Below are positions 3,698 to 22,467 of a stretch of DNA of 32,000 nt, piece by piece (positions within the stretch are counted from its first letter, which is position 1; every line of letters begins with the position of its first letter). A program made the position numbers and the translations under genes. Source of the stretch: Hyphomicrobium sp. MC1 (GTDB lineage Bacteria > Pseudomonadota > Alphaproteobacteria > Rhizobiales > Hyphomicrobiaceae); NCBI RefSeq assembly GCF_000253295.1, contig NC_015717.1, positions 3,188,575 through 3,220,574 on the forward strand, written 5' to 3'. The notes under the pieces are model-generated. The model was not told where the DNA came from, ran no database searches, and saw only the letters and a list, made by a program, of their open reading frames with translations.

Positions 3698-5107
3698 ATG
3701 AATGAAATTATCTGCCCGCACTGCGGGAAGGCGTTCAAGATCGATGAGTCCGGATACGCCGATATCCTGAAGCAAGTTCACGACAGCGAGTTCGAGAAGC
3801 AGCTGCACGAACGGCTTGAATTGGCCGAGCAAGACAAACGAAGCGCCGTCGAACTCGCCCGAACTAAGGTCGCCAGTGAATTTCAGAACACATCCGCAGC
3901 CAAAGACGCTGAAATTCAGGAACTGAAGTCAAAGCTCGAGGCCGGTGAGGTTGCGCGGCAGCTCGCCGTGACTCGGGCGCTAAGTGCCGTGGAAAAGGAG
4001 CGCGATTCGCTAGCGAACGAACTTACCCAGGCCAAGAATGACAAGAAAGCCGCTTCCGAGCTGGGCGAGGCAAGATTAGCGAACGAATTGCAGAAGGCAG
4101 TCAGTACGAAGGACGCGGAGATCCAGGACCTGAAGGCCAAGCTTGCCGCCGCCGAAGTTGCCCACAAGCTCGCGATCAACGAAGCTGTCAATGTAGTTGA
4201 AAAGGAGCGCGACGTACTGAAGAGCGGCGTTGAGCGAGCGGAGCTTGAGAAGCAACTCGCAGAAAAGGCGCTGAAAGACAAGTACGAAACGCAGATAAAG
4301 GATCGGGATGACGCGATCGAGCGCCTCCGGGACATGAAGGCTCGACTGTCGACCAAGATGGTTGGCGAAACCCTTGAGCAGCACTGCGAAACTGAGTTCA
4401 ACCGCATTCGCGCGACGGCGTTTCCGAGGGCATATTTCGAGAAGGACAACGACACGCGGACTGGCAGCAAGGGCGATTACATCTTTCGTGACTCGGACGA
4501 GTCTGCCACTGAGATCATATCGATTATGTTCGAGATGAAGAACGAGAGTGATCGCACCACAACGAAGAACAAGAACGAGGACTTTTTAAAGGAACTCGAC
4601 AAGGATCGCACCGAGAAGGGTTGTGAATATGCGGTACTGGTCTCCCTGCTCGAACCTGACAGTGAACTTTACAACACCGGGATCGTTGACGTTTTTCATC
4701 GCTATCCGAAGATGTACGTCGTCCGACCGCAGTTCTTTATTCCAATCATCACGCTTCTGCGGAACGCCGCAATAAACTCCCTCAAGTACAAGTCGGAGCT
4801 GGCGCTCATCAGGGCGCAGAATATAGATATCACTAACTTCGAAACCCAGCTTGAGACATTCAAGACTGGATTCGCAAAGAACTATGACCTCGCGTCCAAG
4901 CGTTTCCAAACGGCGATCGACGAGATCGACAAATCGATCGACCATCTACAGAAGACCAGGGATGCCCTAATTGGCGCCGATCGGAACCTTCGTCTTGCGA
5001 ACGACAAGGCGCAGGACGTTACGCTCAAGAAGCTTACTCGAGGCAACCCGACGATGGCAGCCAAGTTTGCCGATCTTAAGGACAATGGCCCCTCAGATGC
5101 TGGATGA
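3698..5107 (+). CDS. DUF2130-family protein: N-terminal CPHC Zn-ribbon-like motif, long coiled coil with a 69-aa tandem duplication, C-terminal PD-(D/E)xK-like nuclease fold
   Basis: N-terminus [27 protein letters not shown] and the overall layout match DUF2130 as I recall it. Putative nuclease triad is D260 (GDYIF) and E279-x-K281 (MFEMK). GGAGGG Shine-Dalgarno lies 8-13 nt upstream of the ATG. The gene starts 49 nt after the OLD gene. Confidence 0.8.
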
Positions 5108-5315: not shown

Positions 5316-6704
5316 TCATCTGCTAGGCAGTTGACGGGCCTTGAGTTGAGAGGGGTATGCCACCTGATCTCCTGCGTCCCGATCAGTGCGATCTTCGCTG
5401 ATCACCTTAAGGGGTATGGCGCCGGCAACAGTTGATCGCTCAATGGCAATATCTCCTCCGACGCTTCCAAGAAACCCCCGCAGCTTGTCGAGATCTCCAC
5501 ACCACTGAACTTCGACATCACGGTCTCGCGAGCGGTCGCGCGGTACACCCTGAGGCGCAAATGCGACAATCCGCATTTGCAATCTCTCGGCTTCAGGCGA
5601 ACCATTGATCTCAAGGCCGAAGCCCGGCGTATTCGCGTGCCGCATCACGACGGCGTCGCCCTTGGCGAAAGCTGTCGCCATGCCTTCTTGTACTTCATAG
5701 CCTAGGCTTGACAGGCCTTGGAGGATCGCCTTTCGGCGCGCTTCAGCGGCCAACCGGTTAATCTCTGATGTTACGAGAACCTTCGCGGACGCGATCAACT
5801 CATTGGCCTGCGCTGCATTTGAGGCAGTGATGGCGGTCTTTAGGTTGGCAGCGAGCGCTCTCGCGGCTTCGGAGTTGAAGCGCCGAACTTCAGCTAATTG
5901 CTCGCGAAGTTTCGCGACTAGATAGTTGTTCTCTCGAGCCACACGAGTAGCGTCAGCCAAATCCGCGACGAGGCTATCGGTTAGCAATCGCTTTCGAGTC
6001 TGTGAAGGTTCGGCACCGATTGCTGTTATCCGCTGCTCAAAGATTTCCCGGTTAGGGCCACCTAAGGAACCGAGTTCAACGATAAAGTTGTCGATACGTT
6101 TGAGGCGCTCGTCTTCATGGTTTTCGAGATTTTCGACACGCCATTTAGCGAAACTTGTTGAACGCTCGCCGGCCGCAAGTCTGGCTGCTATCTCACTCGT
6201 CCGCTCCTGCGCCACACTGGTCGCACTATTGCCGGCGAGAACGGCGTAGGCATCAGCAAATGCACGATCCGTATCCGCATTGTTTTCATTTCCCGCAGCA
6301 ATTTCCTCAAGTAATGAGAGCAGCTCTGTCGACACATCCTTTCCAGCGGTCCGTAGCTTGGAAATCACTGCGTTAGCCGCCGCGCAACGCCTGCGCTTTC
6401 TTGTCCGCTTCGCCGCTGCCCTCTCAATCGCTGCGGCCAGCCGAGCCTGCGCATCTTCCTCTAAGAACTTGATTTCTTCCGGTACTGCTTTTTGAAGATC
6501 GAGGAATGCGTTCGCATCCAAAAGCGCGCGGAGTTCATCCCGCCGCTTGTGAACGGCGGCAATGTCCGCTTCGTTAATTCCGTTGGCGCGTTTCCCAGAT
6601 TCCGTCCAGCCCTCTATCGCGGCGTCAAGCCGAGCGAGATGCTGCTCGCAGATAGCTAGAATTTCCTCTCTCGTTACAATCCGAACGACTTTTGGACCGC
6701 TCAT
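5316..6704 (-). CDS. Hypothetical 462-aa protein, predominantly alpha-helical/coiled-coil with a small C-terminal domain; fourth gene of the candidate system
   Basis: The start is taken at MSGPKVVRIVTREEIL (ATG 6704-6702), which forms an ATGA overlap with the stop (6703-6701) of the giant gene. A GGGAGAG Shine-Dalgarno lies just upstream. The 65 residues the track adds upstream would overlap the giant gene. Ala/Glu/Arg/Leu-rich heptad-like sequence with no domain I can name. Confidence 0.7.
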   Translation of the reverse strand: MSGPKVVRIVTREEILAICEQHLARLDAAIEGWTESGKRANGINEADIAAVHKRRDELRALLDANAFLDLQKAVPEEIKFLEEDAQARLAAAIERAAAKRTRKRRRCAAANAVISKLRTAGKDVSTELLSLLEEIAAGNENNADTDRAFADAYAVLAGNSATSVAQERTSEIAARLAAGERSTSFAKWRVENLENHEDERLKRIDNFIVELGSLGGPNREIFEQRITAIGAEPSQTRKRLLTDSLVADLADATRVARENNYLVAKLREQLAEVRRFNSEAARALAANLKTAITASNAAQANELIASAKVLVTSEINRLAAEARRKAILQGLSSLGYEVQEGMATAFAKGDAVVMRHANTPGFGLEINGSPEAERLQMRIVAFAPQGVPRDRSRDRDVEVQWCGDLDKLRGFLGSVGGDIAIERSTVAGAIPLKVISEDRTDRDAGDQVAYPSQLKARQLPSR

Positions 6705-9700
6705 GCCGCTCTCCCGCCTGGATTGCTCAGCGCCGACGCGATAGCCGCGCGGAGGCGCTCCTGCTCGTAGGTTCGACGCGCATACCATTCGGCACACGAG
6801 ATTCGATGAAGTGAACGCACCGTGTTCGAGAGAATTCGCGGCCGCCATAACTCGCGCGCTCTGGCGCGGGCAAGAATTTGGTGTTGGGGTGCATCGCACT
6901 CGATGCCAATGCCATAGAGACCGGTGTTTGGGTTCACAATAGCTAGGTCGACGTTGAATGCGTCGTCTTGGTCACCCGGGACGGGATCATAACCGATTTC
7001 TCTGATGAAGCGCTCTACCGAGCGCTTGAATGCATCGCCTAAATCGTGATCCCGCCCCTCCGTCCGCTTGCCCTCTGTTACCATCCGTCGACAGAGTGAT
7101 CGCGCGGCATCTAGATCCTGTGCGGTAATGGCTCGACCGAATTCCAGATATCCTTGGAGGTAGTCACGCTCAGTCATTGGCGGCCGATGCGTTGACAACA
7201 TGTCGGACACGTCGCCAATTGGGATTGAAGTCGCAACAATGACTTTTCTCTTGGCTCGCGTGATCGCGACATTCAAGCGACGTCGGCCGCCATGCTGGCC
7301 AAGCACACCAAAGTTTCGGCGAAACGAGCCATGCTCGTTGCGCCCAAACGTCGTTGAGAAGATGATTACATCGCGCTCGTCGCCTTGCACATTTTCGACG
7401 TTCTTGACGAAGAAACCAATGTCTTCGTGATCCTGTGTCCGCTGCTGCTCTTCGATATAGGCCCCTCGGAACGCCTCGTCTTCTTCTGCTCGTTCTTCAA
7501 GGCGGTCCTCGATCAAATCGGCCTGCTTACGATTGAATGTTACGACTCCAATAGAGGGGCGTCGTTGCTGGGGTTCCGACCAATAGTCTGCGAGGAGGCC
7601 AACGATGCGATCTGCTTCCTCCAAGTTGGTTTGCTTGGAATAGGTGCCGTTAACGTGTACGATTTCGATCGGGCACTGTTGCAGCACAACCGAGTCGGGG
7701 TGTTGGATAGGGACGTTCAGCCGATTGCCGTAAAATGCTGCGTTAGAGAAGGCGATGAGCTCTCGGTAGGCGGACCGATAGTGAACTTCGAGCATGGTTG
7801 TCGGTAGCGACACTCGAGCCAGATTTAGGAGATCTGGACAGTCCTTGATCTCACGGCGGTTCCAGGTTTCCTCTAATGCTTCGCGGGCGCTTTCACTTAG
7901 CGCTGTATCATCTACATCAACGTCAAGATCTTCCTCATCGTCTTCAATGCGCCCCGCAAAGAACGACGTCGGCGGCATCTGTTTTTCATCGCCACTCACA
8001 ACCGCAATTCCCGCCCTAAAAAGCGTCGGAAGTGCATACTCGATGGGCATCTGCGATGCCTCGTCATAGACGACAACATCGAACAGTCCGGGCGTCAGTG
8101 GGAAGATTCGGCTTGCCACATCTGGATTCACCAGCCAAACTGGCCGCAATTCAAAAAGTCCGAGATCCCGTCCGTTTTCAATGAGATCGCGAATACTAGA
8201 TCGCAACACACCGTTCGCCGCGCGTAGCCGCGTAATACTTGTCCATGTCTGCTGCGAGCCCTGAACCTGATTGTTGTCGACGCCATCGGCCAAAAGGCGA
8301 CTATTGAGGACGCGGATTTTTTGATCGGCATCAGCGAGTGATTGAATTTTTGTTTCTATCTCGCCCTGGTCCATGAGCAACGATGGTTCACGTTCCTCTA
8401 GCGCAGCTTTCAACGCTAGGCGGGGCTCACGAGCGATGATCCGCCGAACCATGGCGGTAAGTTCGCTTGTTGGTAGGATCTCTAGCGGTCCCTCAACTTC
8501 ACGCAAACACTCGAACACTGCAAGGACCATCCCGTCTTGCCCTGCCACGCGCCGACGGAACTCTTGAAACGCCTCCACCGTCGGCAAGGCTCCAGCAATC
8601 GGTCCAACCCGTGCCGTGTTCGACTTGCCCATTGCAATTGCTGATTGACAGGACGACGACCACTTTTCTTCGAACCAGCTCCCAAGGGCCTCAAGTGCGG
8701 CCGCGCTATCCGCTCGTGCTTTGCACCGCTTGATTGCCTGTGCCACCTCTTCAAAGAATATCGGTAACGCATGGTTCTTGGTTGCCTCAAATGCCATATT
8801 CGGCTGAGGTCCTTGAGCGAGCATATCGGCGACCGCAGCGACGTTTCCAAGCGACTGGCGTAGGTCCGCGGTTAGACGTCGAATGCTGCTGATTGGTAGA
8901 TCGCCGACCGTAGGATTATCAATGTCAAGATCTTCAAGGATCCTCTGCAGCCGCTGCTTAACAGCTCGTAGCTCGCGCTCAAATCGTATCGCCGCGTGCA
9001 ATAGCGCAACGTCATGTTTTTCTCCCAGCTTATGATCGCGGAGAAAGCGCCTGAGCTGCCTGAGCGCGGTGTACCTAAAAGGGCTCAGTCGGCTGATAAG
9101 CGACGTCGAGGCAAGCACGCGGCCGGATGCGCGCTCAAGTTTGGAAAAGATTGTCCCGTCAAGGGAGAGGAGAACGCGCTGGAGCTCGACCGGCGGTGCG
9201 GAAGAGGCCTCCTTGTCCAATATCGTAAGAAGTTCGTCGAGTTCTAAGATCAAGCCTCTTCCATCCTCCTTTTCAGTCAGGACGGCGGAGACGGGCCGGA
9301 ACAAGGAAATCCAGCGCGCCAGATTCTCTCGCTGTTCGCCGCGCTGCGCGGCGACCACATCAGTTGAGTCGGAGAGCCACGTGAGCGTGTCGCCGGGGTT
9401 CTCGACTTCAAAAACGGCGGATCTCTCTGCAATTATATGTACGCGCATTGCTTCGACGGAGGCAAAGCGTTCGAAGTCCTCGCTAAACGCGCGCACCGTC
9501 GCAGGATCGGCTTGAAATATCTTTAGTACGCGCAGAGGGCTTCGTTCAAATTTCGAGGGTAGCCAATAGCGCGCCAGCGAGGCACACGCCTCCTCAATAG
9601 CAGTCCGCTGTGCGGGAGGTAGAGATTGGAGAAGGCGACGAAGTTTTGGTACATCAATTGGCGGTACCCCAGCGGCTTCTAGATCAACCAGTTCGCTAAG

Positions 9701-12700
9701 CAGTGATCTGTAACTAGAACCCGTTTGTTCGTCCACGCGATGCACCGCGTCGTGACGGCGATCGAGCTGTCCCTCTAACTCTTCGATCAAAGTCGCTAGT
9801 TGTTTCCTCCGGTTGTTTACGCTGCTTATGCCTGATGGAGGATCGCGGCGTAAATTGAAGACCTGATCGCGGATCATTTGAAGGACCGGCTGCCGGTCTT
9901 TATTTATGTCCGTTATCATCACGCAACGGTCTTGCAGCCCCTCCTTCTCAAGACGCTTTCTCACGACATCTATTGCCGCAAATTTCTGGCAGACGACTAG
10001 TACGCTCTTCTTTCGACCTATAGCGTCGCCAATAACGTTGACGATGGTTTGACTCTTGCCGGTCCCTGGAGGACCTTCGAGCAATAAGCCAGGGCTATGC
10101 CGCGCCTTGAATACGGCGTCCTCTTGCGACGGATCACTCGCCGCACTGAAGAAACGATCTACTTCACGGGGCGCGGTGTGGGTGATCTCCTGTTGCACAG
10201 GATCGGAGATACGAAGTAGCGCGGCCAATGAGGTGGAATCAGGCGCTCTCGACTTCAGGCGTCTCAAATCATCGACAATGGCCTGGCCGATATAAGAGAG
10301 ATGAAAGAGAACAGCTGATGCCGTGACCCGTCGCGCGAAAGGAGGAAGTTGAACATCTCGAGCGGGCAGTTTCGAAATCTGGCGACCCGTTGATGTTGCT
10401 AGGGTCGCAAATGCATCCATTATGTCCGGTGGATTTAGAGTTGATCGACCGAGAAGTTCGTCGATTAGCTCTCGCCACCTGGCCATTTCCTCGATTCCGA
10501 CGATGCCCTCGAGTGCAGGATTAATTCGAACGTCCTCGCGTTCTCGATCGAAGGCGATCGTCACATCACCCCGAACGCCTGTTGCGACATCCACGCGCAC
10601 TGGCCAAAGAAGGACCGGTGCTATCCGAGGCTTGGTTGTCGATCTTCCATCGCGAGCTACAAGAAATGGAAATCCCAGATAAAGCCCGTCAATACCCGTA
10701 TCTCGCTTGTATATGACCGCGCTCTGAACAAGGTGCCGCAATCGGCTTTCTGGCGAGCCCTCAGAAATTGCGAATATAGCTGGGTCAACACTAAGTTTCT
10801 GATCTGAACGTCGCAGAACATGGGAAACAATATCGTCTGGACTTCGCCGTTGTGTACCTAGCTCCGAGACGTCAATGCGCGGTGTCGTCTTACCAATCGT
10901 CATCCTAACCAGCGGCCCTCGCGCTAGCGAAACCGTTACCTTCTTCTCAAAATATTCGAGAATACGCTGGTAGTATTCGTGCTTCGGCGGCTCGAGCCAA
11001 TGTTCCGCAGGAATTGCTAGAAGCGCTAACGCCCGAGCAATTGGCAGACGCCGCTCTAAGCGGAGCTGTTCGACCCACTCGTCCGCGCGAGAAATATTAC
11101 AGCGCGCTAGATCTCCGGTCCGCTTCCGCACCTCTGCGATAAGGTTGCTGCGGGAAAGCTCAAGAGATTGGTCCGCGATCATGGGATCAAATCCCAAAAT
11201 GCCGGCGCGTTGTGCCAGTTGTGCGGCCTCTTCGATGACTTCATCCCTGCTTCGGAAGAACCCGGTATCCGCGGCTAGAAGGATGATTAAATCTTCTTCC
11301 GAAGACTGGCGTCGTTCCATCAGGCTCGCGATCCCGGCATGTTCGGTGTCGGGAAAAAGCCGCCGCTTCGCATCCCATTCGGATGCGAGTTGTGATCGCG
11401 ATGTGGAGAGGAGATAGGCGCGTAACGCAGCTTCTTCCAATTGGATTTCTAGAAGCCTTGCCTTTTCCCGTACAGCGGTGGCGCGTACTCTAAGACGGGT
11501 TAGCCATACTTCCGAGCCCAGAACTTCAAGTATGTCCGGTGCGGGACCATCAATCAGCTCGTAACCGAGTTCACTATTCGTGCGAAGCCAGGGCGGGTTG
11601 ATGATGTCGCCCCGGAACGTGAGGGGCATATTTTCGTTGAGGAGCTTAAGAGCAAGAGACAGTCGAAAGTCATCATGGAGACCATCTCGTCGTGCGACCT
11701 GACGCAACGCCGATGTCGTGCCGCTGGGCAATCCGACCTCAGCGGACCAACTCGCAACTTCGCCGCGCATCAGTAGGTCTCGGGCCTCATCCCAATACTC
11801 GGAGCCAGCGGCTTCGAGGGCGAACCGTATAGGACTCGTATGTGTTTTGCCGCCGAGAACAATCGTTGGGAGTTCAGCAGATTCGCTCTGGCCGACATTT
11901 ACCTCGGTGGGCAGCTCAACGGGCTCCCCGTCGAGACAGGCTTTGAGTTGTTTCCAACCCCACCGTTGGGACTGATCTCGTATCAGCAGACCCCGGAGAA
12001 GAGTTCGAAGTTCGCCCGGCAGGTCCTCTGGAATCGGGACGCCGGTCGCAAGAGCATGCATCAAGAAAACGCGGGGGTTGATCCCATCGAAACAGCGACC
12101 TTCCGTAATCTGTTCGAGCAAGATCATGCCTAAGCTCCACCAGTCCGAGGCGGAAGCAACGGCACCGATGACTGCTTCCGGCGCGGTATATCGCGTCAAT
12201 TCAAGTGGAGCGACGATATCGAGATCGAATTCGGACAAGCGTGCGGACTCAAACCCCGTGATAACGAGATCGAGCGGATCCTCGGCTCGAATGAGAATGT
12301 TAGGCGGCCTTAAATTCCGATGGCGAAGGCCGGCTTCAGCGAAATCCCTGAGTGCTGTTCCGATCTCCAAGGCAAGCGTACGAACGGCTTCAATCTGACA
12401 GCCTGACGGAGACCGGTCTGCGAGCGAACCCGTCTCCATGTTCTCGCACACATCGTAGGCGCGATCACCCCAACGACCGGTTGTTATGAGCTCGGGAATA
12501 TGATCGCGTGGGAGACGTCGAAGCAATGCATAAACGGATGGATCGGGTTCAGAGCCTATTGCATAGAGTGTGAGGACAGCCGACTTATTCCTATCTGCTT
12601 TGGTTGCAATGAACCGTTCGACTGCGGGCCCTGTCGTCTCTAAGCGACGTTCTAGATGCCAACCATCGATCGTCGCTGGCGCCGGCATGTCTTCATCAGA

Positions 12701-13021
12701 ATCCGGACTAGCTTCATCTGCTTCGTAATGCGATTGAGCTTCATTGAAGCCGCTCGGTGTTACAACATCGGCGTGACACACCGGGCAAATGAAATCCCCC
12801 GCTGTGATCGGATGCCCATTTGGACAGGTTGGGCCTGATGAAGTTGTATTTGCTGCCGGCACACTCGTGAGTGGTTCCGGACGCCAGCCAGTTGCCCGAA
12901 TGGGCTCCTCGGAGATCAGCCAAGGCTCGAAACCTCTTTCAATGCAACCTTGGCATAGAACTTCGCCGAGGCCGCGCTCGGTTTCGCAACTCGGGCACCA
13001 TCGCATCCGACTTAGCGACAA
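6701..13021 (-). CDS. Giant 2106-aa multidomain protein: two Zn-ribbons, pseudokinase, DUF4011-like region, Upf1-like SF1 helicase (AAA_11/AAA_12 type) with a large insertion, C-terminal REase (MTES_1575/DUF559-like) domain
   Basis: Zn-ribbons: CPSC...CQGC (aa 9-26) and CPNGH...CPVC (aa 66-82). Kinase fold aa ~118-365: HRNLRPPN at nt 12322-12299, YTAPE, SDWWSLGMILLEQITG. GFPFLV...APVLLWPV is DUF4011-like (aa ~780-810). Walker A GPPGTGKS at nt 10075-10052. Motif II DEASQ at nt 8065-8051. Further helicase motifs: SGDEKQMPP, HYRS, VTFNRKQ, VENVQGDERDVIIF, LNVAITRAKRK. C-terminal VDLAI...GIECDAPQH...RISCAEWY (aa ~2020-2080). TTG start at 13021 is preceded by GGAGGA with a 6-nt spacer. Alternative ATG at 13006. 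Confidence 0.9.
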   Translation of the reverse strand: MSLSRMRWCPSCETERGLGEVLCQGCIERGFEPWLISEEPIRATGWRPEPLTSVPAANTTSSGPTCPNGHPITAGDFICPVCHADVVTPSGFNEAQSHYEADEASPDSDEDMPAPATIDGWHLERRLETTGPAVERFIATKADRNKSAVLTLYAIGSEPDPSVYALLRRLPRDHIPELITTGRWGDRAYDVCENMETGSLADRSPSGCQIEAVRTLALEIGTALRDFAEAGLRHRNLRPPNILIRAEDPLDLVITGFESARLSEFDLDIVAPLELTRYTAPEAVIGAVASASDWWSLGMILLEQITEGRCFDGINPRVFLMHALATGVPIPEDLPGELRTLLRGLLIRDQSQRWGWKQLKACLDGEPVELPTEVNVGQSESAELPTIVLGGKTHTSPIRFALEAAGSEYWDEARDLLMRGEVASWSAEVGLPSGTTSALRQVARRDGLHDDFRLSLALKLLNENMPLTFRGDIINPPWLRTNSELGYELIDGPAPDILEVLGSEVWLTRLRVRATAVREKARLLEIQLEEAALRAYLLSTSRSQLASEWDAKRRLFPDTEHAGIASLMERRQSSEEDLIILLAADTGFFRSRDEVIEEAAQLAQRAGILGFDPMIADQSLELSRSNLIAEVRKRTGDLARCNISRADEWVEQLRLERRLPIARALALLAIPAEHWLEPPKHEYYQRILEYFEKKVTVSLARGPLVRMTIGKTTPRIDVSELGTQRRSPDDIVSHVLRRSDQKLSVDPAIFAISEGSPESRLRHLVQSAVIYKRDTGIDGLYLGFPFLVARDGRSTTKPRIAPVLLWPVRVDVATGVRGDVTIAFDREREDVRINPALEGIVGIEEMARWRELIDELLGRSTLNPPDIMDAFATLATSTGRQISKLPARDVQLPPFARRVTASAVLFHLSYIGQAIVDDLRRLKSRAPDSTSLAALLRISDPVQQEITHTAPREVDRFFSAASDPSQEDAVFKARHSPGLLLEGPPGTGKSQTIVNVIGDAIGRKKSVLVVCQKFAAIDVVRKRLEKEGLQDRCVMITDINKDRQPVLQMIRDQVFNLRRDPPSGISSVNNRRKQLATLIEELEGQLDRRHDAVHRVDEQTGSSYRSLLSELVDLEAAGVPPIDVPKLRRLLQSLPPAQRTAIEEACASLARYWLPSKFERSPLRVLKIFQADPATVRAFSEDFERFASVEAMRVHIIAERSAVFEVENPGDTLTWLSDSTDVVAAQRGEQRENLARWISLFRPVSAVLTEKEDGRGLILELDELLTILDKEASSAPPVELQRVLLSLDGTIFSKLERASGRVLASTSLISRLSPFRYTALRQLRRFLRDHKLGEKHDVALLHAAIRFERELRAVKQRLQRILEDLDIDNPTVGDLPISSIRRLTADLRQSLGNVAAVADMLAQGPQPNMAFEATKNHALPIFFEEVAQAIKRCKARADSAAALEALGSWFEEKWSSSCQSAIAMGKSNTARVGPIAGALPTVEAFQEFRRRVAGQDGMVLAVFECLREVEGPLEILPTSELTAMVRRIIAREPRLALKAALEEREPSLLMDQGEIETKIQSLADADQKIRVLNSRLLADGVDNNQVQGSQQTWTSITRLRAANGVLRSSIRDLIENGRDLGLFELRPVWLVNPDVASRIFPLTPGLFDVVVYDEASQMPIEYALPTLFRAGIAVVSGDEKQMPPTSFFAGRIEDDEEDLDVDVDDTALSESAREALEETWNRREIKDCPDLLNLARVSLPTTMLEVHYRSAYRELIAFSNAAFYGNRLNVPIQHPDSVVLQQCPIEIVHVNGTYSKQTNLEEADRIVGLLADYWSEPQQRRPSIGVVTFNRKQADLIEDRLEERAEEDEAFRGAYIEEQQRTQDHEDIGFFVKNVENVQGDERDVIIFSTTFGRNEHGSFRRNFGVLGQHGGRRRLNVAITRAKRKVIVATSIPIGDVSDMLSTHRPPMTERDYLQGYLEFGRAITAQDLDAARSLCRRMVTEGKRTEGRDHDLGDAFKRSVERFIREIGYDPVPGDQDDAFNVDLAIVNPNTGLYGIGIECDAPQHQILARARARELWRPRILSNTVRSLHRISCAEWYARRTYEQERLRAAIASALSNPGGRAA

Positions 13022-13668
13022 CTTTTATCCTCCGATGTTGCGACCCGGTGGCCATCGGCTTCGAGCAACTCACGAAGACGCGCGAGATCGCCGCGGTCGG
13101 GAATGCCAGCGAACCACACGGCACCACCCTCTTCGAAGGCTATGTCTAGTCTGCGGTCTTGTTCGCCTCGCGGGCCATCGTAATTGGCAAAGCGGCGTCG
13201 GCCGAGCTGCGTTAAAGGAAATAGACGTTGATTGTCACTACCGCGCAGACGGCGCGTTTGCGCCGTTGACCGTACGAAAGGATCGGTCACGATTGCATCG
13301 ATAAGGCCCGACAGCCGCTCCAAATGCGGGCCAATTGCTTCAAAAGAATAGCCTGAGAAAACCAAAATGTCCGCGGAGCATTCTAGTCTCAGAAGGCGGA
13401 GCAAAGCCTCAAGCGCCGCGACCTGATCGAACGGCTCACCTCCGGAGATCGTAATGCCATCTGCCTGCGACAACCAAGGTTTGATTGATGCAAGAACTTC
13501 GTCAATGGCCACGGTTGCCTTCGCGAATGTCCAAGTGTCCGCGGAAATACAGCCCGAACACCGAATTGAGCATCCCTGGAACCAGATGCCAATCCGCTTT
13601 CCAGGACCGAGGGCCGTGACCGGAAAATGGAGCCGTGAAAGACCGACAGCGATAGGTATGTCACTCAT
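13012..13668 (-). CDS. Small radical SAM protein of the NrdG/PflA/QueE-like (4Fe-4S single-cluster, activase-like) type
   Basis: GIWFQGCSIRCSGC gives C33-x3-C37-x2-C40 (nt 13572-13549). ITISGGEP is a SAM-binding motif (aa 72-79). Only 218 aa. ATGA overlap with the upstream AAA+ gene and a 10-nt overlap with the giant gene start. Confidence 0.85.
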   Translation of the reverse strand: MSDIPIAVGLSRLHFPVTALGPGKRIGIWFQGCSIRCSGCISADTWTFAKATVAIDEVLASIKPWLSQADGITISGGEPFDQVAALEALLRLLRLECSADILVFSGYSFEAIGPHLERLSGLIDAIVTDPFVRSTAQTRRLRGSDNQRLFPLTQLGRRRFANYDGPRGEQDRRLDIAFEEGGAVWFAGIPDRGDLARLRELLEADGHRVATSEDKSCR

Positions 13669-15509
13669 GATGATCTCGACAGTCGCAGCGAAGTCACTGG
13701 CCCTTTTTCCAAATCGGCAATTGTGAGCCGACCGTCCCGCCCGTCCCCAAAATCGAACAGTGAACGTGCAAGCGGATTCACAAGATGGCGTTCGACCTGA
13801 TTTCGGATGCCACGGCCGCCGTTGGATAGATCTTCAAGGCATAACGCGGCGAGCTTCTGACGTGCGATATCACTCATCGAGATCTGGATGCCGCTTTGCG
13901 CAAGATCGGCCAAGGTGGAAACTACCATCGAATCAAAAATCTGAATCGCAACCTCCGGGCGGATAAAGTCGAAGACTATAATGTTTTCTCCAATCCGATT
14001 GAGGATTTCTGGCCGGTTTAATGTGATCTTAAAATGACGATCAATCTCTCTCCTGACGCCAGCCCTAACTTCATCGAATGGTTCGCTCGGCGAGACATTT
14101 AAGGTGCGTCCGCCGGATGGGTCGTCGCGGTAGATTCCGAGATTAGAAGTGAAGACGATAAACGCCTCTGAAAAATAGACTCGATCACCTCGCCCGGATG
14201 TGAGTACGCCGTCGTCGAGCACTTGCAGGAATTTATCGAGAATGCGGGGATGCGCTTTCTCGATTTCATCGAACAGCACCACGCAAAATGGTCGCTCGCG
14301 AATGGCGTTCGTTAATTCTCCGCCAACGTCATAGCCGACATAGCCGGGTGGGGCGCCTATCAATCTTTGATCCGAATGCTCTGCGCCAAATTCAGACATG
14401 TCAAAACGAATATACGCACTCTCATCACCGAAGAGCAGAGAGGTTATCGTTTTGGCGAGTTCAGTTTTTCCCACGCCAGTGGGACCGGCCAAGAAAACGA
14501 CACCCCGTGGACGTCCTCCTCGGCGTGGAGCCCCAACTCCCGTAACCGCACGCTTAATAATGTCCAGCACATGCGTGATGGCGTGGTCCTGGCCCTTGAC
14601 CCGCTCGCGAATAAAATCAGGAGCCGACTCGATCTTGCGTCTATCGATCTTGCGCCAAGGGTCTTCAGTCACTCCCACTTTGTAACGTCGCACGGCATCA
14701 CCGATACGGTCGAACGTGACCCCCTCGCCGCGTCCCAATTGCGCAATTGCATTGAGATCCGTCAGCAGCAATCCGTCCGTCATATCCACGAACGCATCTG
14801 CAGCTGACCGAATTGCATCCGAAGTAGCTCCGGCCCCTCCCGACATTGTTTTCACGAGTGTCTGACCGAGGGATTTTCGCACTCGATGGTCGGGCTTTGG
14901 GATCGGTATGTGCCGAAGGCGCGCGTTATTAAGTAGGAACCAATCTGGAAGATCGCCCTCCTTGTCGACGATCCAAAGGATAGAATTGAAGAATGGTGTT
15001 CGCTGTGCGCCAATTGGCTTGGGTCGAGCTGTATGGCACAGCACTTGTGCTCGCAGGAACAGCTGATGTTCATGCGGCTGGAGGAATTCATTCCGTACAA
15101 TTAATCGCGATGCAAAATCGACGATGAGCGCGATTGGTCCATCGGGAAAAGAGACAATCTTTTCGAGTGTTGCCGAGAGTAAATCGAGGCCCCCGGGGGC
15201 TGCACCATCGGCAGGCGTTAAGCCGAGTTGGGTCAGAAGAGTTTCGCTACCAGCGGGCGATCCCAATAAAGGCTCGGCCAGCCCGAATCCCGTCGTAGGC
15301 TCGTATGTGACTACACGTCGATAACCCGCGGCGGTGAGTTCCGTTGCGACAAGGGTCAGCAGCGGTACTGCAGCGATAGCGCCCGGAGTGGTTTCGGTCG
15401 TCTGAAGATCCCGAATGTTACCTGTCAGGACAAACTGGCTCTTCAGCGGAAGGAAACGCTGGAGATCTCTAAGCCAACGCGGCTTTTCGTAGATGTCGAC
15501 GTCAGCCAT
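13665..15509 (-). CDS. AAA+ ATPase: ClpA/ClpB D2-type module (AAA_2 plus D2-small-like C-terminus) preceded by a degenerate, P-loop-less AAA-like N-terminal module
   Basis: Active module: VFLAGPTGVGKTELAKT (Walker A nt 14486-14463), IGAPPGYVGYDVGGELT, VVLFDEIEKAHP (Walker B), FIVFTSNLG, RPEILNRIG. N-terminal half: FVLTGNIRDL in the Walker A position, ALIVDFASRL Walker B-like, RLRHIPIPKPD. ATG at 15509 is preceded by GAGG and a G-run. The TTG at 15557 in the track is less likely. Confidence 0.85.
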   Translation of the reverse strand: MADVDIYEKPRWLRDLQRFLPLKSQFVLTGNIRDLQTTETTPGAIAAVPLLTLVATELTAAGYRRVVTYEPTTGFGLAEPLLGSPAGSETLLTQLGLTPADGAAPGGLDLLSATLEKIVSFPDGPIALIVDFASRLIVRNEFLQPHEHQLFLRAQVLCHTARPKPIGAQRTPFFNSILWIVDKEGDLPDWFLLNNARLRHIPIPKPDHRVRKSLGQTLVKTMSGGAGATSDAIRSAADAFVDMTDGLLLTDLNAIAQLGRGEGVTFDRIGDAVRRYKVGVTEDPWRKIDRRKIESAPDFIRERVKGQDHAITHVLDIIKRAVTGVGAPRRGGRPRGVVFLAGPTGVGKTELAKTITSLLFGDESAYIRFDMSEFGAEHSDQRLIGAPPGYVGYDVGGELTNAIRERPFCVVLFDEIEKAHPRILDKFLQVLDDGVLTSGRGDRVYFSEAFIVFTSNLGIYRDDPSGGRTLNVSPSEPFDEVRAGVRREIDRHFKITLNRPEILNRIGENIIVFDFIRPEVAIQIFDSMVVSTLADLAQSGIQISMSDIARQKLAALCLEDLSNGGRGIRNQVERHLVNPLARSLFDFGDGRDGRLTIADLEKGPVTSLRLSRSS

Positions 15510-15566
15510 CCCCCAAACCTCAGCGACCAATACCCCACAATGCTCATAGGCGAGCAAAGGATATCA

Positions 15567-15582
15567 GTCGATGCGAATCGAC
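15567..15582. promoter_or_regulatory. Perfect 6-4-6 palindrome GTCGAT-GCGA-ATCGAC about 60 nt upstream of the AAA+ gene start; candidate operator or structural element
   Basis: Seen directly: gtcgatgcgaatcgac in the 470-bp intergenic region upstream of the four-gene operon. No function demonstrated. Confidence 0.2.
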
Positions 15583-15979
15583 GGCTATCTGCACTTTCAC
15601 GGTAGCTTTTTCCACCACTTGTGCCGAGGGTGCATGGCAGTCAGCATCGATCGGGCGGACTTGAGTGCATGCTCCGGTTCGCTATGACTCGCCCCACCAG
15701 CGGCCTTGTAGGTATTGCGCAACGTTGCTTCCGATTGACGGGAAGAAATGCGGCTCCGATTTCCGCAAGGATGCAAATTGCAGACATCTGGCTAGAAAAG
15801 TTGGCCGACAGCTCAGAGCGATTGTTTGATATCGGCAATCGGTTTAGGAGCACACATCGCGGACACTTGAGCCAAACCTCTTAGTGACCCTTACTGGACA
15901 TCAGGCGCCTGCCGGCCTTGGAGGTTGTTGATCGAAGCGATGCTTAGTGGTTGTTGGAAAGATGTCCGCACAGCAACGG

Positions 15980-16810
15980 TCAACGACTGCCTATAAGCTG
16001 GCCTCGGAAATCGGGATTTCTTTTCTCAATAAAGGCGCGGACACCTTCTTTATGCTCGTCGCTAAAGTTCGATAAGCCCTCAAGCGCAAGCGAGGCTTCT
16101 ATGTTGGCGGAAACGATTTGCCTCAGGGTCGCATTAACGGCCATCTTGGTCGATTGTATCGCCTTCGTCGCCCCCCGCAACAACTGCTGCGCGAACGCGT
16201 CGACACTGTCGTCCAGCTCTTCGTGCGGAACGCAATAATTGATGAGGCCGATGCGCTCGGCCCGCTCGGCGCTGAGCAGGTTTCCCGTCATCAAAAATTC
16301 CTTGGCGCGCGCATAGCCGACAAGTTGCGGCCATATCGCCGATCCGCCATCGCCAGCGACGAAGCCGACCGATACGTGCGGATCGCCGATCTTTGCCTTC
16401 TCCGATGCAAAAACGACATCGCAAAATAAAGCGATGGTCGCACCAAGACCGACTGCACTGCCGTTGAGCTTGGCAATGATCGGCTTTTCGCAATCGAGAA
16501 GGCTGAAGACGATCCGCTTTGCTTCCGTTACCGTCTGATACCATCGCTCGGGATAGGTGATTAGGTCTTCCATCCATTGAACGTCGCCGCCGGCGCAAAA
16601 TGCGCGTCCCGCACCAGTCAGAACGATGACGTCGATCGTGCTGTCCGAGCCGGCATCGGTAAAGATCTGCGATAATTCGCGATGCATCCGCGCATCGGTG
16701 GCATTGAGCTTCGCGGGCCGATTCAATGTCAGGGATAGAAGGCGGTCGTTCTTTTCGATCGTGATGTCTTGATATTTTGCGTAAATTTCTGAAATCGAAT
16801 TTACCTCCAT
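15980..16810 (-). CDS. Enoyl-CoA hydratase/isomerase (crotonase) family protein
   Basis: LTLNRPAKLNATDARMHRELSQIF...VIVLTGAGRAFCAGGDV is the classic crotonase oxyanion-hole region. The start at MEVNSISEI (16810) gives a TAATG overlap with the upstream Zn-ribbon gene. Confidence 0.9.
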   Translation of the reverse strand: MEVNSISEIYAKYQDITIEKNDRLLSLTLNRPAKLNATDARMHRELSQIFTDAGSDSTIDVIVLTGAGRAFCAGGDVQWMEDLITYPERWYQTVTEAKRIVFSLLDCEKPIIAKLNGSAVGLGATIALFCDVVFASEKAKIGDPHVSVGFVAGDGGSAIWPQLVGYARAKEFLMTGNLLSAERAERIGLINYCVPHEELDDSVDAFAQQLLRGATKAIQSTKMAVNATLRQIVSANIEASLALEGLSNFSDEHKEGVRAFIEKRNPDFRGQLIGSR

Positions 16811-17025
16811 TATCGGTGAATTTCCTCGCGGACGGCTGGCGCTCGAAATTTGAACCACCCGAAATGAGTTCGGCAGACGTTGCACTTCATCAACATTTCC
16901 GACGGATGCGCACCATATAGCGAGACGACGCGAACGTCGTCGCTATTACAGTTGACGCAGGCGATGCCTCGAGCGAGCGCGGCAATCAAATCGGGCGCTT
17001 TTTGGGGCGGGCCGCTTTTCGTCAT
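16810..17025 (-). CDS. Small Zn-ribbon protein resembling the C-terminal part of PaaD (PaaJ)
   Basis: MTKSGPPQKAPDLIAALARGIACVNCNSDDVRVVSLYGAHPSEMLMKCNVCRTHFGWFKF has CxxC...CxxC followed by F-x-x-FK, as in the PaaD C-terminus. ATGA overlap with the PaaC-like stop. Confidence 0.6.
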   Translation of the reverse strand: MTKSGPPQKAPDLIAALARGIACVNCNSDDVRVVSLYGAHPSEMLMKCNVCRTHFGWFKFRAPAVREEIHR

Positions 17026-17777
17026 TGTTCGCCAACGCGCATATGTTGGAAGAGACCATCGGGAATGGCACCGGCACGTCTGCGCCGTCGGTCCCACGCA
17101 TCTGATATTTTGCGCTTTGGCAATTCTATCGCCACCTCGAGGAGCTGATAGATCCCATTGAGTTCCTTATTGAAGAGCGCATGCACCTCCTTGTTGGATG
17201 TTTTGCGAAGTCCGGAGACGTGCGTGCTGTCGTCTTGCTCAGCGGGGCCTATCCACTCGTTGGCGAGCGCGGCGCGCGCGCCGAGGCAGCTAACGAATTC
17301 AGCCTGTTCCTCGGCCTCAAACGCTTCGGCCCAACCTTTGACGTAGAGCTGATGAAAATATTGCTCCTGGTGGATCTTTTTCAGAAGAAGTCCGCCCTGA
17401 CGGTCGCTTCCATCTAAGAATCCAGTCGTGAGCGCCTTGATCGCCGCTTCTGCCGCAAAGATGGCAGCAAGGAGATCCGGCCACGATTGAGGCGGTCTAT
17501 CGAGGACGGCCATCGCATGGATGTCCTCTGCACGTCTCCCGCGCTCCAGATGATCATAGTCGAAGCCGTAGTTGACGAGATATTGAAAGAGCACTCGGGC
17601 GTGGCCGAGGGACGTGCCGCCGAGGGCGAGCAGCGTCGCGAAATCGGCCACCGATCGGCCATTGAAGACCGTCGTGAAGCACCATGCGGAGAGAGCATGT
17701 TTGGAATCCCCAACGGCGAGCAGATCGGAGATGTAATTAGGATCGGCCGTCGTGCTTTCTTCGATGATGGCGTTCAT
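17022..17777 (-). CDS. paaC: PaaC (PaaI)-like structural subunit of an aryl-CoA epoxidase/oxygenase
   Basis: 251 aa. Its ferritin-like helical sequence aligns by eye with E. coli PaaC (LLAVGDSKHALSAW..., HARVLFQYL, HQEQYFHQLYVKGW). Sits between the PaaB-like and PaaD-C-like genes. Confidence 0.7.
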   Translation of the reverse strand: MNAIIEESTTADPNYISDLLAVGDSKHALSAWCFTTVFNGRSVADFATLLALGGTSLGHARVLFQYLVNYGFDYDHLERGRRAEDIHAMAVLDRPPQSWPDLLAAIFAAEAAIKALTTGFLDGSDRQGGLLLKKIHQEQYFHQLYVKGWAEAFEAEEQAEFVSCLGARAALANEWIGPAEQDDSTHVSGLRKTSNKEVHALFNKELNGIYQLLEVAIELPKRKISDAWDRRRRRAGAIPDGLFQHMRVGEQ

Positions 17778-18010
17778 AGTATCCTTTCGGCGTTAGCGCC
17801 TCGCCCAACGGCGAGCACCTCAACAATCGCGTTGCTCCTCACTACCCACATCTCTTTCCACGGATGTTCGTCGAAGACATACCAAGCGCGCGCACGGGCG
17901 AGATCATCGCTGCCGGCGAGCACCCGCCCGAGGTGATGAAGGGTTTCCGATGAATTGCGTCGTGCGAAGACTTCATAGCCTTCTTCAGCCGCACACGCCT
18001 TTTTCGGCAT
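17774..18010 (-). CDS. paaB: PaaB-like subunit of an aryl-CoA epoxidase
   Basis: YEVFARRNSSETLHHLGRVLAGSDDLARARAWYVF...EMWVVRSNAIVEV parallels PaaB (YEVFVR...HVGSLHA...A...A...SIWVV). ATG at 18010 is preceded by AAGGAG, which overlaps the TAA of the upstream gene. Confidence 0.75.
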   Translation of the reverse strand: MPKKACAAEEGYEVFARRNSSETLHHLGRVLAGSDDLARARAWYVFDEHPWKEMWVVRSNAIVEVLAVGRGANAERIL

Positions 18011-18023
18011 AGTCCCGGACTCC

Positions 18024-19294: not shown

Positions 19295-19307
19295 CGATTT
19301 TATTCCT

Positions 19308-22461: not shown

Positions 22462-22467
22462 GGCTGC

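What the first reader, a model, noticed from the sequence alone, without database searches (positions are those of the whole stretch)
5316..15509. Four-gene translationally coupled operon (AAA+ / radical SAM / Zn-ribbon-pseudokinase-helicase-nuclease giant / coiled-coil protein): candidate undescribed conflict or anti-phage system
Seen in sequence. Four co-oriented minus-strand genes are joined by start/stop overlaps: ATGA at 13665-13668, a 10-nt overlap at 13012-13021 and ATGA at 6701-6704. That implies co-translation and probably a complex. Gene 1 is a Clp-D2-type AAA+ ATPase with a dead N-terminal AAA-like module. Gene 2 is a 218-aa NrdG/PflA/QueE-like radical SAM enzyme. Gene 3 is a 2106-aa protein combining two Zn-ribbons, a kinase fold without catalytic residues, a DUF4011-like region, an Upf1-like SF1 helicase and a REase-like C-terminus. 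Gene 4 is a 462-aa coiled-coil protein with no domain I can name. Established knowledge. SF1 helicase-nuclease fusions, AAA+ remodelers and radical SAM enzymes each occur in known defence systems. From memory, a DUF4011 helicase plus Vsr-like endonuclease single-gene system named Hhe has been described, as have viperin-type radical SAMs. I know of no named system that combines a Clp-like ATPase, an activase-like radical SAM and a pseudokinase-helicase-nuclease. Inference. The location next to an OLD-family nuclease and a serine-recombinase module fits a defence-island cargo. A plausible logic is a sensor/scaffold (pseudokinase, Zn-ribbons), an effector (helicase-nuclease), and accessory remodeling plus radical chemistry.
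Basis: partly seen in the sequence, partly recalled or inferred. Interest (0 to 1): 0.9.

Follow-up and report, generated by a model that had tools for sequence, protein, structure and literature searches.

The report
Conserved four-gene helicase-nuclease / radical-SAM cassette
Four tightly linked genes (a Clp-like protein unfoldase, a radical-SAM enzyme of the glycyl-radical-activase type, a 2106-residue pseudokinase-helicase-nuclease and a protein with no known relative) travel together as one unit across at least seven bacterial phyla; the set has no name or tested function, and it is most likely an undescribed defence system against foreign DNA.

Summary
Four co-oriented minus-strand genes in Hyphomicrobium sp. 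MC1 are joined by ATGA, 10-nt and ATGA overlaps.

- **The genes are not adjacent by chance.** The best 80 genome loci found with the radical-SAM gene included 58 complete operons. All 58 have the same order and the same gene sizes (about 610, 215, 2090 and 450 aa). They come from Proteobacteria, Chlamydiae, Acidobacteria, Verrucomicrobia, Bacteroidetes and Cyanobacteria; truncated actinobacterial loci carry the first genes.
- **The genes are inherited as a unit.** Pairwise identities of the four genes correlate at r = 0.84-0.95. Flanking genes are not conserved: 382 flank proteins fall into 363 clusters.
- **Gene 3** is a relative of the anti-phage helicase-nucleases ProA, Hhe and PDC-S37. It scores below their membership cut-offs and carries an extra N-terminal zinc-ribbon plus kinase-like module. 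That module is catalytically dead here but looks active in variant loci.
- **Gene 2** is a PflA/NrdG-type activase homologue with no glycyl-radical enzyme nearby.
- **Gene 1** is a two-tier Hsp100 with a degenerate first ring.
- **Gene 4** has no sequence or fold relative and an invariant MSGPK N-terminus.

No defence database or paper searched names the quartet. In P. aeruginosa it appears to be the core right flank of defence hotspot cDHS1. A defence role is inferred, not shown.

The parts
13665..15509 (-). g1: 614-aa two-tier Hsp100/Clp-like ATPase. Residues 1-280 are a degenerate AAA-like module with no Walker A (FVLSGN in its place). Residues 290-614 are an active ClpB-D2-type module: GPTGVGKT, VVLFDEIEKAH, pore loop GAPPGYVGY, and the D2-small domain. 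There is no N-domain, and I saw no IGF-type ClpP loop.
   Evidence: Pfam and NCBIfam. Alignment A3 has 74% mean column identity. AF2 model pLDDT 77. Foldseek to ClpC/ClpA/ClpB over about 640-700 columns, E 1e-29. Partial PADLOC hits to PDC-M37B and DolB.
13012..13668 (-). g2: 218-aa radical-SAM enzyme of the glycyl-radical-enzyme-activase type (PflA/NrdG-like). It has an N-terminal GPGxR motif, CX3CX2C (C33, C37, C40; nt 13549-13572), an invariant SGGEPF SAM-binding motif and a PflA-like C-terminus.
   Evidence: Pfam Fer4_12 2.6e-25. NrdG TIGR02491 78 bits, below the 126 cut-off. Best solved relative is PflA 3c8f, E 1.6e-13, including a weak second match to the PflA C-terminus (3 bits). 56 invariant columns in A1.
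6701..13021 (-). g3: 2106-aa multidomain protein, taken to be the effector.
   Evidence: ORF. Alignment of 53 full-length homologues. Pfam, PADLOC and NCBIfam.
12767..12997 (-). g3 residues 9-85: two zinc ribbons (CPxC...C...C and C.NGH...C..C).
   Evidence: The Cys pairs are conserved in 53 homologues. Variants carry DZR/Zn_Ribbon Pfam hits.
11927..12664 (-). g3 residues 120-365: Hanks-type kinase fold, catalytically dead in this protein. HRD is HRN, DFG is GFE, and the beta3 Lys is Thr. The APE motif is kept.
   Evidence: Pfam Pkinase 8.8e-15. Motif comparison.
10508..10774 (-). g3 residues 750-838: DUF4011 core (YKRDTGIDGLYLGFPFL...PVLLWP), inside a conserved but uncharacterised region covering residues 400-950.
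   Evidence: Pfam DUF4011 3.9e-09. The ProA model aligns from residue 750. Conservation.
7217..10174 (-). g3 residues 950-1935: Upf1-like SF1 helicase with all motifs conserved (GPPGTGKS 983-990, DEASQ, SGDEKQMPPT, QGDERD, RLNVAxTRA). A poorly conserved insertion of about 560 aa lies between motifs Ia and II.
   Evidence: AAA_11 and AAA_12. PDC-S37, Hhe and MkoA/C hits. Conservation.
6740..7030 (-). g3 residues 1998-2094: MTES_1575 restriction-endonuclease-fold domain. D2025 is invariant; E2041, C2042 and D2043 are conserved.
   Evidence: Pfam PF18741 2.6e-17. Conservation.
5316..6704 (-). g4: 462-aa protein with no recognisable family. It has an invariant N-terminus MSGPKVVRIVTREE (nt 6663-6704), a long helical region (residues 12-333) and a C-terminal alpha/beta domain (residues 335-436, nt 5397-5702). 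That domain has many invariant polar residues: G335-Y336-E337, E365, Q376, R378, R393-D394, E398, W401-C402, E422, K433.
   Evidence: No Pfam, NCBIfam, PADLOC or PHROG hit. Alignment A2. AF2 pLDDT 81, pTM 0.74. No Foldseek hit at E<=0.001 in PDB or BFVD. No PDB sequence hit. 1419 representative clusters, all about 450 aa and matched from residue 1.
15510..15979 (-). 470-nt upstream intergenic region, presumed to hold the promoter of the operon. No element was identified in it.
   Evidence: Read. No sigma-70-like site. No LexA-type box in 34 homologous upstream regions except one chance-level match.

Best explanation
This is a self-contained, horizontally transferred four-gene conflict system, most likely anti-phage or anti-plasmid.

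**Effector (inferred).** g3 is the effector. It has an Hhe/ProA-type Upf1-like helicase fused to a restriction-endonuclease-fold nuclease, and would translocate on and cut foreign nucleic acid. Its N-terminal double zinc ribbon and kinase-like domain would be the regulatory or docking module.

**Control module (inferred).** The other three proteins form a conserved control module that arms or licenses g3.
- g2, the PflA/NrdG-type radical-SAM enzyme, would act on a protein partner, as all characterised members of that clade do.
- g1, the Hsp100-type unfoldase, would remodel or thread a partner, either to expose the target site or to remove an inhibitor.
- g4, with its invariant N-terminus and fast-evolving helical body, would be the adaptor, inhibitor or substrate.

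**What is shown:** gene order, coupling, co-inheritance, domain identities, conservation of catalytic motifs, and modular replacement of the C-terminal module.

**What is inferred:** the defence role, which protein is the effector, the protein target of g2, and the roles of g1 and g4.
For: **Unit of selection.**
- Of the best 80 loci, 58 have the complete operon in the same order, from at least six phyla; truncated actinobacterial loci carry the first genes.
- Overlapping junctions are conserved.
- Pairwise identities of the four genes correlate at r = 0.84-0.95.
- There is no fifth conserved gene: 382 flank proteins fall into 363 clusters.

**Kinship with validated or candidate defence proteins.**
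- g3 against ProA: 8.5e-146. g3 against Hhe: 4.2e-96.
- g3 against PDC-S37: 2.4e-140. g3 also hits MkoA/MkoC, and its kinase region hits mad6 and PD-T4-6.
- g1 hits PDC-M37B and DolB.

**Catalytic motifs are intact** in the helicase, the nuclease, g1 D2 and g2.

**Modularity typical of conflict systems.** Variant loci keep g2 plus the kinase protein (usually with g1 and a g4-like gene), while the helicase-nuclease is replaced by FGE-sulfatase, FtsK-gamma or unknown C-termini. Their kinase motifs are intact.

**Patchy distribution and mobility.**
- Genomic contexts differ even within Pseudomonas.
- Copies occur on 11 megaplasmids.
- One copy lies beside IS66 and an N6-methylase.
- In this window the operon lies beside an OLD nuclease and DUF2924/DUF3489 remnants.
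- The P. aeruginosa counterpart borders defence hotspot cDHS1 (PMC10250203).

**g2 is PflA-like along its whole length**.
Against: - No experiment exists.
- Immediate neighbours in 58 loci are mostly housekeeping. Only about 10 of 147 hit defence models, and there are 2 integrases and 2 relaxases.
- The P. aeruginosa counterpart is reported in every isolate, which is unusual for a defence system.
- g1 and g2 are unusually well conserved across phyla (62% and 51% mean identity).
- No copy was found in phage genomes or viral contigs.
- No glycyl-radical domain or other recognisable substrate of g2 was found. g4 shows no similarity to GrcA.
- All defence-model hits are partial and below the curated cut-offs.
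Confidence: 0.5

Rival explanations
1. The cassette is a genome-maintenance or stress-response machine, not an immune system. The helicase-nuclease would process damaged or aberrant host nucleic acid (for example DNA-protein crosslinks, R-loops or stalled complexes). The unfoldase and the radical-SAM enzyme would provide repair chemistry or protein removal.
For: - Reported in every P. aeruginosa isolate (PMC10250203).
- High conservation of g1 and g2.
- Neighbours are mostly housekeeping.
- Absent from phages and viral contigs.
- Present in obligate intracellular Parachlamydiales and insect-gut symbionts.
Against: - Very patchy distribution, with different insertion sites even within one genus.
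- No LexA boxes upstream.
- The closest characterised relatives of g3 are anti-phage proteins.
- The effector module is swapped in variants, which is not expected for a dedicated repair pathway.
Confidence: 0.2
2. The defence role is the same, but g2 makes or modifies a small molecule (a nucleotide-like signal, as QueE or viperins do). The degenerate kinase pocket of g3 binds that molecule as an allosteric switch.
For: - g2 also resembles QueE weakly.
- The kinase-like domain is always partnered with g2, and in the main family it has lost catalysis but kept the fold. That pattern fits a ligand sensor.
- No protein substrate motif was found.
Against: - g2 is far closer to PflA/NrdG (E 1.6e-13; NrdG 5e-22) than to QueE (3.5e-4; 2.6e-5), and those enzymes act on protein glycines.
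- In variant loci the kinase looks catalytically competent, so a pure ligand-sensor role is not general.
Confidence: 0.15
3. g3 alone is an Hhe-like single-gene defence protein, and g1, g2 and g4 are functionally unrelated passengers.
For: Hhe, ProA and PDC-S37 relatives are described as single-gene systems (names).
Against: - Order, overlaps and co-variation of all four genes are conserved in 58 loci across phyla.
- Variants that lack the helicase-nuclease still keep g1, g2, the g4-like gene and the kinase.
Confidence: 0.03

Closest known systems
ProA (NCBIfam NF058533, 'anti-phage protein ProA') and Hhe (Gao et al. 2020; NF042953; PADLOC Hhe)
   Same: Both share the C-terminal two-thirds of g3: DUF4011 core, Upf1-like SF1 helicase with a long insertion, and a C-terminal restriction-endonuclease-fold nuclease. 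The ProA model aligns to g3 residues 750-2100 and Hhe to 1546-2083.
   Different: - g3 scores 488 and 323 bits against cut-offs of 1500 and 2000.
- Residues 1-750 of g3 (two zinc ribbons, the kinase fold and a conserved unknown region) are not covered.
- g3 is always encoded with three partner genes, whereas Hhe is a single-gene system.
- I could not find the paper that defines ProA.
PADLOC candidate PDC-S37 (single-gene phage defence candidate)
   Same: This is the best PADLOC hit for g3: 2.4e-140 over g3 residues 962-2098.
   Different: The hit covers only HMM positions 294-1342 of 1550. It is a candidate, not a validated system. It is single-gene and has no N-terminal kinase module.
Dodola DolB and PADLOC PDC-M37B (ClpB-like ATPases in defence systems)
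   Same: g1 shares the ClpB-D2-type AAA+ core (4e-27 and 6e-17).
   Different: The match covers only about 120-180 residues of the ATPase core. No DolA or PDC-M37A homologue is present. The degenerate first ring of g1 is not covered.
Glycyl-radical-enzyme activases PflA and NrdG
   Same: g2 shares the GPGxR motif, CX3CX2C, the GGE motif, the LxGxxNxR region and a weak match to the PflA C-terminus. It is PflA-like over the whole length.
   Different: - It scores below the family cut-offs.
- The residue after the third Cys is an invariant Ser, not Asn.
- No glycyl-radical enzyme is encoded nearby.
- It is found in aerobes and linked to a kinase-domain protein.
Defence Ser/Thr kinases (PD-T4-6, MADS mad6)
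   Same: The g3 kinase fold hits mad6 (2.4e-20) and PD-T4-6 models. Variant loci have intact Lys/HRD/DFG motifs.
   Different: In the window protein and in most of the full-length homologues aligned, the catalytic Lys, the DFG Asp and (here) the HRD Asp are lost.
P. aeruginosa cDHS1 right-flank genes (Johnson et al. 2023, PMC10250203). From memory these are PA2725-PA2728.
   Same: [quoted passage not shown] That matches g4-g3-g2, and P. paraeruginosa locus L027 carries the full operon.
   Different: There the genes were used only as conserved markers of a defence hotspot. No function was proposed or tested.

Membership tests
Hhe (single-gene DUF4011 helicase-nuclease defence) | Score at or above the NCBIfam equivalog cut-off (2000 bits) with full-length coverage | tested here: not met
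   322.8 bits, covering g3 residues 1546-2083 only. PADLOC Hhe hit covers HMM positions 1325-1767 of 1911.
Hhe (single-gene DUF4011 helicase-nuclease defence) | DUF4011 plus SF1 helicase plus C-terminal endonuclease in one protein | tested here: met
   PF13195, PF13086/PF13087 and PF18741 are all in g3.
Hhe (single-gene DUF4011 helicase-nuclease defence) | Acts as a stand-alone gene | tested here: not met
   g3 is always flanked by g1, g2 and g4 with overlapping junctions, in 58 loci.
ProA (NF058533) | Score at or above the equivalog cut-off (1500 bits) | tested here: not met
   487.6 bits. Model positions 449-1709 of 1903 align to g3 residues 750-2100.
PADLOC PDC-S37 | Full-length match to the PDC-S37 HMM | tested here: inconclusive
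   E 2.4e-140, but only HMM positions 294-1342 of 1550 and g3 residues 962-2098 are covered. PADLOC system-level rules could not be run.
Dodola (DolA + DolB) | DolA partner present, and full DolB match | tested here: not met
   No DolA hit in any of the six proteins scanned. The DolB hit is partial (g1 residues 279-457).
Glycyl-radical-enzyme activase (PflA/NrdG) | CX3CX2C cluster motif, GGE SAM motif and N-terminal GxGxR motif | tested here: met
   C33, C37, C40, G76-G77-E78 and G21-P-G23-x-R25 are invariant in 28 sequences. PflA 3c8f E 1.6e-13.
Glycyl-radical-enzyme activase (PflA/NrdG) | Score above the curated family cut-off | tested here: not met
   NrdG 78.4 bits against 126.1. PflA 56.1 bits against 231.75.
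Glycyl-radical-enzyme activase (PflA/NrdG) | A cognate glycyl-radical enzyme or domain encoded nearby | tested here: not met
   No Gly_radical Pfam hit in g1, g3, g4 or the neighbours. g4 against GrcA by hhalign gives probability 0.07%. The only invariant G-aromatic motif outside the g1 pore loop and its N-terminal module is g4 LGYEV.
Glycyl-radical-enzyme activase (PflA/NrdG) | Generates a protein glycyl radical | not testable with these tools
   This needs EPR or SAM-cleavage assays.
Hsp100/Clp double-ring unfoldase | Two AAA+ tiers, with a D2 carrying Walker A/B, an aromatic pore loop and a D2-small domain | tested here: met
   Foldseek to ClpC/ClpA/ClpB over about 640-700 columns. GPTGVGKT, DEIEK and GAPPGYVGY are invariant. 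PF07724 and PF10431.
Hsp100/Clp double-ring unfoldase | ClpB/ClpA equivalog score, N-domain, and an active D1 | tested here: not met
   ClpB 250 bits against 1232. There is no N-domain, and D1 lacks the Walker A motif.
Hanks-type protein kinase | Catalytic beta3 Lys, HRD Asp and DFG Asp | tested here: not met
   The window protein has LTLY, HRN and GFE. Variant loci and some full-length homologues do keep these residues.
Viperin-like (pVip) radical-SAM defence | Match to the viperin/pVip family | tested here: not met
   g2 has no PADLOC hit at all. Its family is Fer4_12/activase-like.

The most novel reading that the evidence does not exclude
A homologue of the glycyl-radical-enzyme activases has been recruited into an immune-type system. 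g2, helped by the Hsp100 unfoldase g1, would install a radical or a radical-derived modification on a partner protein (g4 or g3). That step would be the switch that arms or disarms a helicase-nuclease. Protein-directed radical-SAM chemistry would then be a new signalling principle in bacterial conflict systems. The same control trio would drive alternative effectors: an active kinase with FGE-sulfatase or FtsK-gamma modules.
Probability: 0.2. Interest if true: 0.9.

Novelty: new variant of a known kind. Interest (0 to 1): 0.72.

Why it matters
If the inference holds, three things follow.

- **A new component set for defence.** It would add an activase-type radical-SAM enzyme, a half-dead Hsp100 unfoldase and a protein family of at least 1400 sequence clusters with no known fold to the Hhe/ProA class of helicase-nuclease defences. 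It would also show that these large effectors can be controlled by protein remodelling and radical chemistry.

- **An immediate genetic test.** The cassette is widespread and highly uniform. It appears to be the core cluster that borders the main defence hotspot of P. aeruginosa, so a model pathogen is available for testing.

- **A probable new substrate class.** g2 is a glycyl-radical-activase homologue without a glycyl-radical enzyme, in aerobes.

If the cassette instead turns out to be a housekeeping repair machine, it would still be an uncharacterised, conserved four-protein system.

Tried and rejected
1. **Named-system search.**
   - PADLOC, NCBIfam, Pfam and PHROGs on all four proteins gave only partial hits for g1 and g3, and none for g2 (defence models) or g4.
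   - Seven literature searches found no description of the quartet. Kaur et al. 2020 mentions a different radical-SAM system. The source of the name 'ProA' was not found.

2. **g4 as a glycyl-radical substrate.** This is rejected as homology. The invariant LGYEV motif remains only a lead.

4. **SOS regulation.** No LexA-type boxes were found in 34 upstream regions.

5. **Promoter and terminator scan.** Nothing exceeded the shuffled controls.

6. **Phage carriage.** No g4 homologue was found in 50,697 phage genomes or in IMG/VR.

7. **A fifth conserved gene.** None was found.

8. **tRNA integration site.** The window has no tRNA gene.

Full report
**Observation.** The window comes from the Hyphomicrobium sp. 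MC1 chromosome: g2 is 100% identical to a protein on a 4.76-Mb contig. The four minus-strand ORFs exist as described. Reading the junctions shows three overlaps:
- ATGA at 13668..13665 (g1 stop / g2 start).
- A TTG start of g3 at 13021, overlapping the g2 stop (TAA 13014..13012) by 10 nt, with a GGAGGA Shine-Dalgarno sequence upstream.
- ATGA at 6704..6701 (g3 stop / g4 start).

The N-terminus MSGPKVVRIVTREE is invariant at residue 1 in 32 homologues, and the profile matches about 450-aa proteins from residue 1 throughout a 1.84-billion-protein library.

**What the proteins are.**
- **g1 (614 aa).** It has an active ClpB-D2-type AAA+ module. Walker A, Walker B and the GAPPGYVGY pore loop are invariant. 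Ahead of it lies a 280-residue alpha/beta module plus lid that lacks a P-loop. The AF2 model (pLDDT 77) aligns over about 640-700 columns with double-ring ClpC, ClpA and ClpB (E 1e-29). g1 is therefore a two-tier Hsp100 with a degenerate first ring and no N-domain.
- **g2 (218 aa).** It is a radical-SAM enzyme whose closest families are NrdG and PflA. Its closest solved structure is PflA (E 1.6e-13), with a weak second match (3 bits) reaching the PflA C-terminus. The GPGxR motif, CX3CX2C and SGGEPF are invariant.
- **g3 (2106 aa).** It contains two conserved zinc ribbons, a kinase fold, a conserved unknown region with a DUF4011 core, an Upf1-like helicase with all motifs conserved, and an MTES_1575 restriction-endonuclease-fold domain in which D2025 is invariant.
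- **g4 (462 aa).** It has no hit in Pfam, NCBIfam, PADLOC, PHROGs or PDB sequences. Its confident AF2 model (pLDDT 81, pTM 0.74) shows an N-terminal strand, a long helical region and a C-terminal alpha/beta domain rich in invariant polar residues. Foldseek found no match at E<=0.001 in PDB or BFVD.

**Is the adjacency meaningful?** Yes.
- A scan of one genome per species with the g2 alignment found 481 relatives. The best 80 loci were kept.
- tblastn and ORF mapping show g1, g2, g3 and g4 on one strand with near-constant sizes in essentially every locus that has enough flank. That gives 58 complete operons.
- The complete operons come from Alpha-, Beta- and Gammaproteobacteria, Parachlamydiales, Acidobacteria, Verrucomicrobia, Flavobacteria and a cyanobacterium; truncated actinobacterial MAG contigs carry g1, g2 and part of g3.
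- The overlapping junctions recur: g3/g4 ATGA in 41 of 53 loci.
- Pairwise identities of the four genes across 48 loci correlate at r = 0.84-0.95. g1 is the slowest gene (62% mean identity) and g4 the fastest (32%).
- The flanks are not conserved. 382 flank proteins form 363 clusters, and the neighbours differ even among Pseudomonas species.

The cassette is therefore a self-contained unit that is inherited and transferred whole.

**Variants.** In four verrucomicrobial loci (including Akkermansia) and three betaproteobacterial loci, g2 is linked to a shorter kinase-domain protein that lacks the helicase-nuclease.
- The C-termini of these proteins are FGE-sulfatase, FtsK-gamma or unknown. The betaproteobacterial ones keep the zinc ribbon.
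- The loci usually also carry g1 and a g4-like gene.
- Their kinase domains keep the beta3 Lys, HRDLKPxN and DFG motifs.
- Of the full-length homologues inspected, verrucomicrobial L058 keeps all three and flavobacterial L063 keeps the HRD and DFG Asp residues. The proteobacterial and most other full-length proteins aligned, including this one, have lost them: LTLY, HRD/HRN without the Asn, and GFG/GFE.

The constant pair is thus the radical-SAM enzyme plus the kinase-domain protein (with a zinc ribbon in most). The C-terminal module is exchangeable.

**Comparison with known systems.**
- g3 hits the anti-phage models ProA (488 bits, cut-off 1500), Hhe (323 bits, cut-off 2000), PDC-S37 (partial), MkoA/C, mad6 and PD-T4-6.
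- g1 hits PDC-M37B and DolB, but only over the ATPase core.
- g2 has no hit to any defence model, and g4 has no hit to any model.
- No paper in the searchable library describes the quartet.
- The nearest mention is Johnson et al. 2023 (PMC10250203). [quoted passage not shown]
- That description matches g4-g3-g2, and P. paraeruginosa locus L027 carries the full operon.
- From memory these genes are PA2725-PA2728. Two papers list PA2727/PA2728 as a helicase-like gene.

**Context.**
- In this window the operon lies between ordinary aromatic-acid catabolism genes on one side and, on the other, a DUF2130 gene, an OLD-family nuclease and DUF3489 / frameshifted DUF2924 remnants of a mobile element.
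- Across loci, the 147 nearest neighbours are mostly metabolic. A minority are defence or mobile-element genes: JetA, Upx, AbiEi, Old, a type II REase, Mokosh-like helicases, integrases and relaxases.
- g4 homologues occur on 11 megaplasmids. One lies beside IS66 and an N6-methylase.
- None occurs in phage genomes or viral contigs.

**Interpretation.**
- *Main explanation (about 0.5).* The best-supported reading is a conflict system. The Hhe/ProA-type helicase-nuclease is the effector, and g1, g2 and g4 form a conserved control module.
- *Role of g2.* Because g2 is PflA/NrdG-like along its length, its target is most likely a partner protein. No glycyl-radical domain was detected, and the only invariant G-aromatic motif outside g1 (its pore loop and N-terminal module) is g4 LGYEV. 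This step is therefore speculative.
- *Repair rival (about 0.2).* A housekeeping repair role is not excluded. It is favoured by the core status in P. aeruginosa, the slow evolution of g1 and g2, and the weak defence-island signal.
- *Small-molecule rival (about 0.15).* g2 could instead make a small-molecule signal that the degenerate kinase pocket senses.
- *Chance adjacency* is refuted.

Noticed in passing
window 1699-3648 (+) and 3698-5107 (+): An OLD-family nuclease (AAA_15 + OLD-like TOPRIM; PADLOC Old 1e-56) is followed 49 nt later by a 469-aa protein. That protein has an N-terminal CPHC zinc-ribbon-like motif, a coiled coil and DUF2130 (1.9e-93), and it has no PADLOC hit. This could be a two-gene OLD + DUF2130 module.
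   Followed up: partly
window 434-1318 (-): DUF3489 (908-1318) lies next to a DUF2924 gene split by a frameshift into two ORFs (434-829 and 631-918). From memory, these families accompany large serine recombinases of alphaproteobacterial mobile elements. The island containing OLD, DUF2130 and the operon may be old cargo of such an element. The recombinase itself is not in the window.
   Followed up: partly
L075 5042-11313 (Akkermansia muciniphila MAG); L054, L059, L067 (Verrucomicrobia): This is a variant cassette. It runs Clp-like ATPase, g4-like protein (about 514 aa), an active-looking Ser/Thr kinase fused to FGE-sulfatase (or FtsK-gamma in L054), and the radical-SAM gene. In L075 a double-zinc-ribbon + FHA protein follows. 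There is no helicase-nuclease.
   Followed up: partly
L078-L080 (Ottowia, Methyloversatilis, a Burkholderiaceae MAG): The radical-SAM gene is followed by a zinc-ribbon + active-looking kinase protein of about 830-880 aa (the L080 ORF is longer). In L079 this is followed by a 778-aa protein ending in AAA_33 and a 911-aa unknown protein. L078 keeps a Clp-like ATPase upstream; no g1 was detected in L079 or L080 (in L080 the contig ends just upstream of g2). No g4 was detected in any of the three.
   Followed up: partly
g3 residues 120-365 (window 11927-12664) compared with homologues: The kinase catalytic residues form a gradient within one orthologous family. Lys/HRD/DFG are intact in the short variants and in verrucomicrobial full-length L058; flavobacterial L063 keeps the HRD and DFG Asp residues but not the Lys. 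The motifs are lost in the proteobacterial (and most other) full-length proteins aligned. The window protein has additionally changed HRD to HRN.
   Followed up: yes
g4 residues 1-14 (window 6663-6704): The N-terminus MSGPK..RIVTREE is invariant, although g4 is the fastest-evolving of the four genes (32% mean identity). This points to an N-terminal recognition or processing signal, perhaps for the g1 pore. That idea is untested.
   Followed up: partly
L081 (Rhizobium leguminosarum plasmid pRL1, CP090109.1 623582-631859): A copy of the cassette sits on a 1.17-Mb conjugative plasmid. Its g3 is annotated as two CDSs (a DUF4011 protein and an AAA-domain protein), which suggests a frameshift or a split gene. 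No AAA+ CDS is listed upstream of the radical-SAM gene, but the PLSDB gene table is incomplete. IS66, an N6-DNA methylase and an AAA ATPase + metallophosphoesterase pair are nearby.
   Followed up: no
window 15980-30000: This stretch is an aromatic-acid catabolism cluster. It holds enoyl-CoA hydratase, two PaaA/PaaC-like oxygenase subunits, TetR, an AMP-dependent ligase, UbiD-like and UbiX-like (flavoprotein) decarboxylase genes, a TRAP transporter (DctPQM) and a MetA-pathway outer-membrane protein. It is ordinary chromosomal context and marks the right-hand boundary of the island.
   Followed up: partly
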